Below are positions 24,801-27,800 of a stretch of 64,000 nucleotides of DNA, in pieces. This stretch comes from Escherichia coli. Its GTDB lineage: Bacteria > Pseudomonadota > Gammaproteobacteria > Enterobacterales > Enterobacteriaceae. A program made the position numbers. Position 1 is the first letter of the stretch. Each line of letters opens with the position of its first letter. The stretch is taken from the NCBI RefSeq assembly GCF_044324875.1, contig NZ_CP172185.1, one strand, 5' to 3'.

Positions 24801-27800
24801 CTGCTGGTGGTGCTGGTGGTGCTGGTGGCGGAAAAAAGATCGGCTTTAGACAATGCAGTATTGGCGGTCTGGAAAGTCGTCAGCGCGCTTTTCAGCGTAC
24901 CGTAGGCGCTAAGTTTAGCGGTAAACGACGATTGCTGATTTGAAATAGGGGTTAGCGTCGCTTTTTGCGCGGCGGTGAGGCTATCAAGGATTGAACTTAA
25001 ATCCAGGCCTGACCCGACTCCCAGCGATGAAATACTTGCCATGCGATTTCCTTTTATCTTTCGACACGTAAAACGAATACCGGGGTTATCGGCCTGAATT
25101 GCGCAAAGTTTACGTTTAATTGTTTTTTTTAATAGCGGGAATAAGGGGTAGAGAAAAGAGTATTTCGGCGACTAACAAAAAATGGCTGTTTGTGAAAAAA
25201 ATTCTAAAGGTTGTTTTACGACAGACGATAACAGGGTTGACGGCGATTGAGCCGACGGGTGGAAACCCAATACGTAATCAACGACTTGCAATATAGGATA
25301 ACGAATCATGGCACAAGTCATTAATACCAACAGCCTCTCGCTGATCACTCAAAATAATATCAACAAGAACCAGTCTGCGCTGTCGAGTTCTATCGAGCGT
25401 CTGTCTTCTGGCTTGCGTATTAACAGCGCGAAGGATGACGCCGCGGGTCAGGCGATTGCTAACCGTTTTACTTCTAACATTAAAGGCCTGACTCAGGCTG
25501 CACGTAACGCCAACGACGGTATTTCTGTTGCACAGACCACCGAAGGCGCGCTGTCCGAAATCAACAACAACTTACAGCGTATTCGTGAACTGACGGTTCA
25601 GGCCACTACCGGTACTAACTCTGATTCGGATCTGGACTCCATCCAGGACGAAATCAAATCTCGTCTGGACGAAATTGACCGCGTATCCGGTCAGACCCAG
25701 TTCAACGGTGTGAACGTACTGGCGAAAGACGGTTCGATGAAAATTCAGGTTGGTGCGAACGACGGCCAGACTATCACGATTGATCTGAAGAAAATTGACT
25801 CAGATACGCTGGGTTTGAATGGTTTTAACGTTAATGGCAAAGGTACTATTGCGAACAAAGCTGCTACAGTCAGCGATCTGACCGCTGCTGGTGCAACGGG
25901 AACAGGTCCTTATGCTGTGACCACAAACAATACAGCTCTCAGCGCTAGCGATGCACTGTCTCGCCTGAAAACCGGAGATACAGTTACTACTACTGGCTCG
26001 AGTGCTGCGACCTATACTTATGATGCGGCTAAAGGGAACTTCACCACTCAAGCAACAGTTGCAGATGGCGATGTTGTTAACTTTGCAAATACTCTGAAAC
26101 CAGCGGCTGGCACTACTGCATCAGGTGTTTATACTCGTAGTACTGGTGATGTGAAGTTTGATGTAGATGCTAATGGCGATGTGACCATCGGTGGTAAAGC
26201 CGCGTACCTGGACGCCACTGGTAACCTATCTACAAACAACGCCGGCATTGCATCTTCAGCAAAATTGTCCGATCTGTTTGCTAGCGGTAGTTCTTTAGCG
26301 ACAACTGGTTCTATCCAGCTGTCTGGCACAACTTATAACTTTGGTGCAGCGGCAACTTCTGGCGTAACCTACACCAAAACGGTAAGCGCTGATACTGTAC
26401 TGAGCACAGTACAGAGTGCTGCAACGGCTAACACAGCAGTTACTGGTGCGACAATTAAGTATAATACAGGTATTCAGTCTGCAACTGCGTCCTTCGGTGG
26501 TGCTAATACTAATGGTGCTGGTAATTCGAATGACACCTATACTGATGCAGACAAAGAGCTTACCACAACCGCATCTTACACTATCAACTACAACGTCGAT
26601 AAGGATACCGGTACAGTAACTGTAGCTTCAAATGGCGCAGGTGCAACTGGTAAATTTGCAGCTACTGTTGGCGCACAGGCTTATGTTAACTCTACAGGCA
26701 AACTGACCACTGAAACCACCAGTGCAGGCACTGCAACCAAAGATCCTCTGTCTGCCCTGGATGAAGCAATCAGCTCCATCGACAAATTCCGTTCATCCTT
26801 GGGTGCTATCCAGAACCGTCTGGATTCCGCGGTCACCAACCTGAACAACACCACTACCAACCTGTCCGAAGCGCAGTCCCGTATTCAGGACGCCGACTAT
26901 GCGACCGAAGTGTCCAACATGTCGAAAGCGCAGATCATCCAGCAGGCCGGTAACTCCGTGCTGGCAAAAGCTAACCAGGTACCGCAGCAGGTTCTGTCTC
27001 TGCTGCAGGGTTAATCGCCTGAATGCCTCTCAAACCCCGCTCCGGCGGGGTTTTTTACAATTGGCTTTTTGCGTAACCCCCAAATAACCCCTCATTTCAC
27101 CCACTAATCGTCCGATTAAAAACCCTGCAGAAACGGATAATCATGCCGATAACTCATATAACGCAGGGCTGTTTATCGTGAATTCACTCTATACCGCTGA
27201 AGGTGTAATGGATAAACACTCGCTGTGGCAGCGTTATGTCCCGCTGGTGCGTCACGAAGCATTGCGCCTGCAGGTTCGACTGCCCGCGAGCGTGGAACTT
27301 GACGATCTGCTACAGGCGGGCGGCATTGGGTTACTCAATGCCGTCGAACGCTATGACGCCCTACAAGGAACGGCATTTACAACTTACGCAGTGCAGCGTA
27401 TCCGTGGCGCTATGCTGGATGAACTTCGCAGCCGTGACTGGGTGCCGCGCAGCGTGCGACGCAACGCGCGTGAAGTGGCACAGGCAATAGGGCAACTGGA
27501 GCAGGAACTTGGCCGCAACGCCACGGAAACTGAGGTTGCGGAACGTTTAGGGATCGATATTGCCGATTATCGTCAAATGCTGCTCGACACCAATAACAGC
27601 CAGCTCTTCTCCTACGATGAGTGGCGCGAAGAGCACGGCGATAGCATCGAACTGGTTACTGATGATCATCAGCGAGAAAACCCGCTACAACAACTGCTGG
27701 ACAGTAATCTGCGCCAGCGGGTGATGGAAGCTATCGAAACGTTGCCGGAGCGCGAAAAACTGGTATTAACCCTCTATTACCAGGAAGAGCTGAATCTCAA

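What the first reader, a model, noticed from the sequence alone, without database searches (positions are those of the whole stretch)
27015..27056. fliC 3' UTR and terminator as a candidate 3'-UTR-derived sRNA
A 20-nt spacer after the fliC stop leads into a strong terminator (ccccgc/gcgggg plus T6). Sigma-28-dependent 3'-UTR-derived sRNAs have been reported at fliC (FliX), and this segment is where one would originate; the 3' UTR is fixed by the terminator position regardless of the variable fliC allele.
Basis: inference. Interest (0 to 1): 0.3.

Follow-up and report, generated by a model that had tools for sequence, protein, structure and literature searches.

The report
fliC terminator; FliX sRNA body absent
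The segment is the ordinary, strongly conserved transcription terminator of the flagellin gene fliC, and in this E. coli strain the 3' UTR is a minimal 42-nt form that lacks the REP elements and the seed of the known FliX small RNA.

Summary
The fliC stop is at 27012-27014. A 20-nt spacer follows, then CCCCGC/TCCG/GCGGGG and T6 (27035-27056); the fold is -17.1 kcal/mol, z = -3.2.

The FliX interpretation holds only for position. K-12 FliX (b4827) is 195 nt: two REP elements plus a seed (UUGUCAGCAACGUGC) just 5' of a homologous terminator. Here a 56-nt patch (27018-27073) replaces the 213-nt K-12 segment. The REPs and seed are gone, and the seed occurs nowhere in the window. The spacer does not pair above chance with the FliX targets rpsS, rplC, rpsQ or fliC, whereas the K-12 seed does for rpsS and rpsQ.

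The short form is the family-wide one. In Citrobacter, Enterobacter, Leclercia, Buttiauxella and others, fliC is followed by 13-33 nt and the same near-invariant AACCCCGC...GCGGGGUUUUUU hairpin. The long FliX form was seen only in Escherichia (E. coli, E. albertii).

Among 5,426 complete E. coli genomes, about 65% carry FliX, about 33% carry one of three short forms, and 3.7% carry this one. So the 3' UTR is not fixed across alleles.

Most likely this is a plain intrinsic terminator that insulates the fliA promoter. A short Hfq-bound stub cannot be excluded.

The parts
25205..25231 (+). sigma-28 (FliA) promoter of fliC: TAAAGGTT-N11-ACGATAA
   Evidence: It has 2 mismatches to TAAAGTTT-N11-GCCGATAA. 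There are 5 such sites in the window against 0.49 expected. The region is 59-60/60 identical to K-12.
25308..27014 (+). fliC (flagellin, 568 aa). The central region is variable. The last ~200 nt are 98% identical to K-12.
   Evidence: This H-allele's variable region occurs in 85 of 5,426 E. coli genomes.
27015..27034 (+). 20-nt spacer of the minimal 3' UTR (UCGCCUGAAUGCCUCUCAAA). It sits where K-12 has the FliX body, and it carries no FliX seed.
27032..27053 (+). Terminator hairpin AAACCCCGC-UCCG-GCGGGGUUU. The core stem is 27035-27040 with 27045-27050.
   Evidence: Fold of -17.1 kcal/mol, z = -3.2. It is homologous to the K-12 FliX terminator. The stem is nearly invariant in 29 aligned Enterobacteriaceae sequences.
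27051..27056 (+). T6 tract. The predicted transcript 3' end is at about 27055-27057.
   Evidence: The K-12 FliX annotation ends in the equivalent T7 tract.
27018..27073 (.). 56-nt allele-specific patch that stands in for the 213-nt K-12 segment (REP1, REP2, seed, terminator, 17 nt downstream). Sequence on both sides is 97-100% K-12-like.
   Evidence: The closest relatives of the patch are Enterobacter asburiae (86%) and Leclercia adecarboxylata (83%), closer than the other E. coli short types at 72-76%.
27074..27177 (+). fliA promoter and leader region, invariant among the E. coli alleles compared. The terminator insulates it from fliC transcription.
   Evidence: It is 87-96% conserved across genera.
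27178..27897 (+). fliA (sigma-28), GTG start

Best explanation
The segment 27015-27056 is the complete, minimal 3' UTR of the monocistronic, sigma-28-transcribed fliC mRNA. It consists of a 20-nt spacer and a Rho-independent terminator (9-bp GC-rich hairpin plus U6). RNA polymerase coming from the very strong fliC promoter stops here. This defines the mRNA 3' end, gives the mRNA a protective 3' hairpin, and keeps fliC transcription from reading into the fliA-fliZ-tcyJ promoter region that begins about 20 nt downstream. This allele is the short form of the fliC 3' UTR found across the Enterobacteriaceae. The K-12 FliX sRNA exists because, within Escherichia, about 155 nt were inserted between the stop-proximal spacer and this same terminator. 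That insert is a pair of REP elements plus the segment carrying the FliX seed. This strain does not have the insertion, so it does not encode FliX as a base-pairing regulator. Any 3' fragment would be a roughly 40-nt terminator stub, or a stub plus CDS tail, without the FliX seed. Shown here: the anatomy, the homology of the hairpin, the absence of REPs and seed, the lack of target complementarity, and the phylogenetic and population distribution. Inferred: termination activity, the insulation role, and the absence of a regulatory RNA.
For: Anatomy and fold. The sigma-28 promoter is conserved. K-12 FliX is annotated at 2001912-2002106 and ends in the homologous hairpin and T7. Alignments show that only the hairpin and the sequence from 27074 onward are shared. 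The seed position is defined by the published M1 mutation and the FliX-S 5' end by the cloning primer: (PMC10578931, supplementary file 3). No seed match exists anywhere in the window at up to 3 mismatches. RNAduplex: the K-12 seed pairs with rpsS at -19.8/-23.3 kcal/mol (z = -3.9/-3.1) and with rpsQ (z = -2.7/-2.1). The window spacer gives z between +0.45 and -1.07 on rpsS, rplC, rpsQ and both fliC alleles. Outgroups: of the 71 loci recovered, 36 have fliC directly upstream of fliA. 30 of those 36 have a 162-164-nt intergenic region, and all but Enterobacter sp. R1 (326 nt) and E. albertii (302 nt) have the short UTR with the same hairpin. Where fliB intervenes (Enterobacter chuandaensis, E. 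sichuanensis) the hairpin stays with fliC.. The long REP+seed form was seen only in E. coli and E. albertii.
Against: No expression data exist for this allele, so accumulation of an Hfq-bound 3' fragment cannot be excluded. fliC is among the most abundant mRNAs, and terminator hairpins with U tails are generic Hfq ligands. The eLife paper also reports extra bands attributed to alternative processing of fliC mRNA. The stop-proximal motif UCGCCUGA / CCUGA recurs across genera, which hints at some constraint on the spacer. The direction of change within Escherichia is not fully settled. E. albertii shares the long form, so short forms in E. coli may have been re-imported with flagellin alleles rather than retained.
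Confidence: 0.82

Rival explanations
1. A short 3'-derived RNA is cut from fliC mRNA, binds Hfq through the terminator and U tail, and acts as a regulator or Hfq sponge with a seed different from K-12 FliX. It would be either about 40 nt starting just after the stop, as K-12 FliX does, or about 80-100 nt including the CDS tail.
For: The position, promoter and terminator are the same as for FliX. In mRNA context the last ~80 nt of the CDS plus the UTR fold into two hairpins, a layout compatible with Hfq-binding modules (-58 kcal/mol for 158 nt, z = -2.5). The CCUGA/UCGCCUGA motif in the spacer recurs in several genera. The paper saw several FliX-probe bands that it ascribed to alternative processing of fliC mRNA.
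Against: The spacer is only 20 nt and differs completely between the three E. coli short alleles. It varies between genera while the hairpin is invariant, so there is no conserved seed. It shows no above-chance complementarity to known FliX targets. The U tract is 6, against 7 in K-12; from my own knowledge of work by Otaka, Morita and Aiba, not checked here, U tails shorter than about 7 bind Hfq less well. The sequence around the K-12 FliX 5' end (UAAUCG|UUGUAA) is changed to UAAUCG|CCUGAA.
Confidence: 0.13
2. The short UTR is a secondary deletion of FliX in this lineage, that is, a degenerate FliX locus rather than the original state.
For: E. albertii and about 65% of E. coli carry the long form, so the long form could be ancestral within the genus. 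REP-flanked segments are prone to rearrangement.
Against: A simple deletion of the K-12 form would leave K-12-like sequence on either side of the hairpin. Instead the spacer (27018-27034) and the 17 nt after the T tract (27057-27073) both differ from every other E. coli type. They are closest to Enterobacter and Leclercia at 83-86%. The 163-nt intergenic length equals the family-wide standard. This fits retention or lateral import of the short form, not a deletion.
Confidence: 0.05

Closest known systems
FliX sRNA of E. coli K-12 (b4827; Melamed et al., eLife 2023, PMC10578931)
   Same: Same genomic position (immediately 3' of fliC, upstream of fliA). Same sigma-28 fliC promoter. Homologous terminator hairpin (CCCCGC(C)...(G)GCGGGG plus a T run) that forms the FliX 3' end.
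   Different: K-12 FliX is 195 nt, contains two REP elements, and has a seed (UUGUCAGCAACGUGC) directly 5' of the terminator. FliX-S (~100 nt) keeps one REP and the seed. The window has only 20 nt between stop and hairpin, with no REP, no seed and no complementarity to rpsS, rplC, rpsQ or fliC.
Canonical Rho-independent terminators at the end of highly expressed monocistronic genes
   Same: A GC-rich 6-9-bp stem, a tetraloop and a U6 tract, 20 nt after the stop codon. It is conserved in the orthologous position across genera.
   Different: Nothing notable. The stem sequence is unusually invariant across genera, with no covariation because there is almost no variation.
Short fliC 3' UTRs of other Enterobacteriaceae (Enterobacter asburiae, Leclercia adecarboxylata, Citrobacter spp., Buttiauxella spp.)
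   Same: A 162-164-nt fliC-fliA intergenic region, a mostly 17-20-nt spacer (range 13-33 nt) and the same hairpin. The window patch is 83-86% identical to the Enterobacter and Leclercia versions.
   Different: Point differences in spacer, loop and the 17 nt after the T tract.
Other 3'UTR-derived Hfq sRNAs processed from mRNAs (for example CpxQ, SdhX, FlgO)
   Same: They would share a terminator with the parent mRNA, and their expression is tied to the parent promoter.
   Different: Those RNAs have a conserved single-stranded seed upstream of the terminator. No conserved seed is present here.

Membership tests
FliX sRNA (E. coli K-12 b4827) | Encoded in the fliC 3' UTR and ending at the fliC intrinsic terminator | tested here: met
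   same position, homologous hairpin.
FliX sRNA (E. coli K-12 b4827) | Made from the sigma-28-dependent fliC transcript | tested here: met
   The promoter sequence is present and about 99% identical to K-12. Expression itself is not testable.
FliX sRNA (E. coli K-12 b4827) | A ~195-nt body containing REP elements (FliX-S of ~100 nt includes one REP) | tested here: not met
   about 157 nt are missing. Rfam finds REP-derived matches in the K-12 locus but none here.
FliX sRNA (E. coli K-12 b4827) | Seed UUGUCAGCAACGUGC (site of the M1 mutation) pairing with rpsS, rplC, rpsQ and fliC | tested here: not met
   Seed defined. It is absent from the 3' UTR and from the whole window at up to 3 mismatches. 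Spacer duplex energies are not better than shuffles.
FliX sRNA (E. coli K-12 b4827) | Hfq association and processing from fliC mRNA | not testable with these tools
   Needs a Northern blot, Hfq co-IP or RIL-seq in a strain with this allele.
Rho-independent terminator | A stable GC-rich hairpin immediately followed by a U tract on the coding strand | tested here: met
   9 bp, -17.1 kcal/mol, T6.
Rho-independent terminator | Located at the end of a transcription unit and conserved in orthologous position | tested here: met
   It lies 20 nt after the fliC stop. The same hairpin follows fliC in 34 distinct sequences from many genera and stays with fliC when fliB is inserted.
Rho-independent terminator | Actual termination of transcription at the U tract | not testable with these tools
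   Indirect support only: the annotated K-12 FliX 3' end lies in the homologous T tract.
Hfq-dependent 3'UTR-derived sRNA (generic) | A conserved single-stranded seed 5' of the terminator | tested here: not met
   The spacer differs between E. coli short alleles and between genera, while the hairpin is invariant.
Hfq-dependent 3'UTR-derived sRNA (generic) | A long U tail (about 7 or more) for Hfq proximal-face binding | tested here: inconclusive
   The tract is T6 followed by A. The threshold comes from my own knowledge of the literature and was not checked here.

The most novel reading that the evidence does not exclude
FliX, the published 'decelerator' of flagellar synthesis, may be a lineage-restricted and polymorphic innovation rather than a core E. 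coli regulator. It would have been created when a REP pair plus a seed-bearing segment was inserted into an older ~20-nt fliC 3' UTR. About one third of complete E. coli genomes, including this strain, would then naturally lack it while keeping its antagonist MotR (present at 50891-50985, with 3 substitutions in and around its seed). If so, post-transcriptional control of flagellar number differs between strains in a way linked to the fliC locus. A still more speculative version is that the short UTR yields a ~40-nt Hfq-bound 'proto-FliX' stub with its own function.
Probability: 0.6. Interest if true: 0.4.

Novelty: already known. Interest (0 to 1): 0.2.

Why it matters
For this window the practical result is negative. 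The segment should be annotated as the fliC terminator and not as a FliX gene, because position-based transfer of the K-12 fliX annotation to this allele would be wrong. The wider by-product is modestly useful. FliX is present in only about two thirds of complete E. coli genomes, and outside Escherichia it was absent from every surveyed genus in which fliC directly precedes fliA. Conclusions about the MotR/FliX toggle drawn from K-12 may therefore not hold for strains with short fliC 3' UTRs. Natural short-UTR strains are also ready-made FliX-null backgrounds. I found no paper in the searchable library that describes this polymorphism, but the library is incomplete and the eLife conservation figure could not be read.

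Tried and rejected
**Rfam**
- The evalue-mode search of 24900-28000 gave only sub-threshold terminator look-alikes such as istR, RsmY and anti-hemB.
- As a control, the K-12 FliX locus itself gave only REP-derived hits (ES036, naRNA4). Rfam 15 therefore has no FliX model, and the negative result is uninformative.

**Terminator and structure scans**
- The generic terminator scan count is not above shuffles, so I did not use it as evidence of significance.
- The RNAalifold covariation test on 29 short UTRs found no compensatory pairs, because the stem hardly varies. This is conservation, not covariation.
- I tested the idea that the spacer's (G)CCUG pairs with CCAGG in the CDS to close a helix around the stop codon. 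Single-sequence folds across 36 taxa are inconsistent, so I did not pursue it.

**Target pairing**
- The first RNAduplex script, run against the whole S10 operon with many shuffles, timed out. I reran it on single genes.

**Literature**
- Searches for papers on fliC 3' UTR variation found nothing relevant.

**Claims dropped**
- I considered linking the short form to ST131/H4. One record labelled O25b:H4-ST131 carries a 436-aa flagellin and a long UTR, so the labels are unreliable and I dropped the idea.
- The simple-deletion origin of the short form was rejected (see rival 3).

Full report
**1. What is in the sequence**

The window is an E. coli flagellar region in the reverse orientation of K-12.
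- The genes are fliD (-), fliC (+, 25308-27014, 568 aa), fliA (+, from 27178), then fliZ and tcyJ.
- The fliC stop TAA is at 27012-27014.
- A 20-nt spacer follows (27015-27034).
- Then comes the hairpin CCCCGC (27035-27040), loop TCCG, GCGGGG (27045-27050), and T6 (27051-27056).
- The fold extends to 9 bp at -17.1 kcal/mol, z = -3.2, and none of 200 shuffles does as well.

The generic terminator scan does find the site, but its overall count is not above chance. The case for a real terminator rests on energy, position and conservation.

**2. Comparison with the known FliX**

FliX is real and published (eLife 2023, PMC10578931).
- It is a sigma-28-dependent, Hfq-bound RNA of about 200 nt processed from the fliC 3' UTR.
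- A ~100-nt form, FliX-S, includes one REP element.
- It represses fliC and S10-operon genes through a defined seed.

RefSeq annotates it in MG1655 as b4827 (2001912-2002106, 195 nt), starting 3 nt after the fliC stop and ending in the terminator T7 tract.

The paper's oligonucleotide table locates the functional parts.
- FliX-S starts at GAATTTGCACATTTTTGTAGGCCGG.
- The M1 seed mutation changes GCA to CGT in ...AATTTGTCAGCAACGTGCTT..., which lies directly 5' of the terminator stem.

Aligning the window with K-12 gives three results.
- The last ~200 nt of fliC are 97-98% identical.
- Everything from 27074 onward (the fliA promoter and fliA) is 98-100% identical.
- Between them, a 56-nt patch (27018-27073) stands in for 213 nt of K-12.

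Only the hairpin is recognisably shared. Both REP elements and the seed are missing. The seed has no match at up to 3 mismatches anywhere in the 64-kb window.

**3. Test of function by complementarity**

I used RNAduplex with 100 shuffles per comparison.

| Query | rpsS | rpsQ | rplC and fliC |
|---|---|---|---|
| K-12 pre-terminator region (20 / 29 nt) | -19.8 / -23.3 kcal/mol, z = -3.9 / -3.1 | z = -2.7 / -2.1 | not above shuffles |
| Window 20-nt spacer | not better than shuffles | not better than shuffles | not better than shuffles |

- The K-12 duplex with rpsS covers the GCA triplet mutated in M1. This is the interaction the paper validated by compensatory mutation.
- The K-12 seed's predicted duplexes with rplC and with fliC were not above shuffles in this test (z about -0.5 to -1.6).
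- Over all five targets tested (rpsS, rplC, rpsQ, K-12 fliC and the window's own fliC), the window spacer gives z from +0.45 to -1.07.
- The spacers of two other short E. coli alleles behave the same way.

The FliX seed function is therefore not encoded here.

**4. Where the short form comes from**

I scanned one genome per species with a fliA-start pattern. This returned 71 Enterobacteriaceae loci.
- In the 36 loci where fliC directly precedes fliA, 30 have a 162-164-nt intergenic region (the window has 163). All but two have the short 3' UTR: a 13-33-nt spacer (mostly 17-20) followed by (A)AACCCCGC-loop-GCGGGGTTTTTT. This holds in Citrobacter, Enterobacter, Leclercia, Buttiauxella, Pluralibacter and others.
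- The two exceptions are Enterobacter sp. R1 (326 nt, two copies of the hairpin) and E. albertii (302 nt, the long form).
- Where fliB lies between fliC and fliA, as in some Enterobacter, the hairpin stays with fliC.
- Salmonella has a different fliC terminator.
- In 29 aligned sequences the 8 stem pairs are 28-29/29 unchanged, while loop and spacer vary. This is strong sequence conservation. It leaves no variation in which covariation could be seen.
- The window's patch is most similar to Enterobacter asburiae (86%) and Leclercia (83%). It is less similar to the other E. coli short types (72-76%).
- The long REP+seed form appears only in E. coli and in E. albertii, which has a recognisable seed TTGTCAGCAAC.

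My reading is that the short UTR is the original family-wide state, and that FliX arose in Escherichia by insertion of about 155 nt in front of the pre-existing terminator. I cannot decide whether this strain retained the short form or re-acquired it by recombination.

**5. Population census**

The counts below are places covering at least 80% of each query, among 5,426 complete E. coli genomes.

| 3' UTR type | Genomes | Share |
|---|---|---|
| K-12-type FliX (195 nt) | 3,503 | 65% |
| Window-type short junction | 200 | 3.7% |
| Short type, strains H2/R13 | 780 | 14% |
| Short type, strain VTB97448v, ending LLR* | 815 | 15% |

- Together these cover 5,298 of the 5,379 genomes that have the region.
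- The window's fliC variable region occurs in only 85 genomes, so the short UTR type is shared by more than one H allele.
- The counts are megablast-based, and I assumed the classes do not overlap.
- The statement that the 3' UTR is fixed regardless of the allele is refuted. Only the hairpin is fixed.

**6. Mechanism**

Most likely (0.82) this is a plain intrinsic terminator.
- It ends the sigma-28-driven fliC mRNA. The promoter at 25205-25231 is conserved.
- It stabilises the mRNA 3' end.
- It shields the fliA promoter, about 20 nt downstream, from read-through.

The rival (0.13) is a short Hfq-bound stub, or a stub with the CDS tail, that has some function.
- In its favour, the last ~150 nt fold into two hairpins, CCUGA recurs in spacers, and the paper saw extra processing bands.
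- Against it, there is no conserved seed, no target complementarity, and a U tract of only 6.

A deletion origin of the short form is unlikely (0.05), because the sequences on both sides of the hairpin are not K-12-like.

**7. Novelty and score**

The element itself is an ordinary, already known kind of feature, and it fails two defining features of FliX. Interest is low (0.2).

The by-product is of moderate interest to sRNA specialists: FliX is a polymorphic innovation seen only in Escherichia and absent from about a third of E. coli, while MotR is kept here. I did not find this described in the searchable literature.

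Noticed in passing
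window 50858-50985 (+): MotR, the sigma-28 sRNA that acts opposite to FliX, is present with its promoter (50858-50884). It is 92/95 identical to K-12. All three substitutions lie in or next to the seed region hit by the published MotR-M1 mutation (AACTGATACGGTGAGGCGCAAC in K-12 becomes AACTTATACGGTGTGGTGCAAC here). This strain may therefore differ from K-12 in both arms of the MotR/FliX toggle.
   Followed up: partly
window 26975-27021 (+): In mRNA context the spacer's GCCUG can pair with CCAGG(U) of the codons for N-Q-V. This would close a helix around the CAGCAG/CUGCUG hairpin (codons for QQ...LL) and the stop codon. A CCUG(A) motif recurs in the spacers of many genera, but the predicted folds are not consistent across taxa.
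   Followed up: partly
window 55444-55470 (+) and 55377-55454 (-): A perfect sigma-28 consensus (TAAAGTTT-N11-GCCGATAA) lies next to, and overlaps, an Rfam C0465 sRNA match on the opposite strand.
   Followed up: no
window 25086-25112 (-): A sigma-28 promoter-like site with 1 mismatch points towards fliD, divergent from the fliC promoter.
   Followed up: no
window 606-692 (+); 36849-37148 (+): A DsrA sRNA (102.5 bits) and a cluster of three tRNA genes.
   Followed up: no
L006 (E. coli AF40, NZ_OZ547043.1) 730-1605: An IS200/IS605 transposase is inserted between a short-type fliC terminator and the fliA promoter. The intergenic region is 875 nt.
   Followed up: no
L011 (Escherichia albertii NBRC 107761), 302 nt upstream of fliA: The long REP-containing fliC 3' UTR has a FliX-like seed (TTGTCAGCAAC). 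Its terminal hairpin is different (CCCCGTTGCAGCGGGG) and is followed by only ATTT, so it looks like a weak intrinsic terminator.
   Followed up: no
L020 (Enterobacter sp. R1), 326 nt upstream of fliA: Two copies of the CCCCGCTCCGGCGGGG hairpin lie about 175 nt apart between fliC and fliA. This is an independent expansion of the same 3' UTR.
   Followed up: no
H95, NZ_CP090612.1 (420-kb record counted as a plasmid): One copy of this window's fliC allele (98.9% identical) lies on a 420-kb record that the collection classes as a plasmid.
   Followed up: no
L080 (NZ_OX637961.1, labelled O25b:H4-ST131): The record name says H4, but the flagellin gene is 1311 nt (436 aa) and has a long FliX-type 3' UTR. 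Serotype labels in record names are not reliable for linking H type to UTR type.
   Followed up: no
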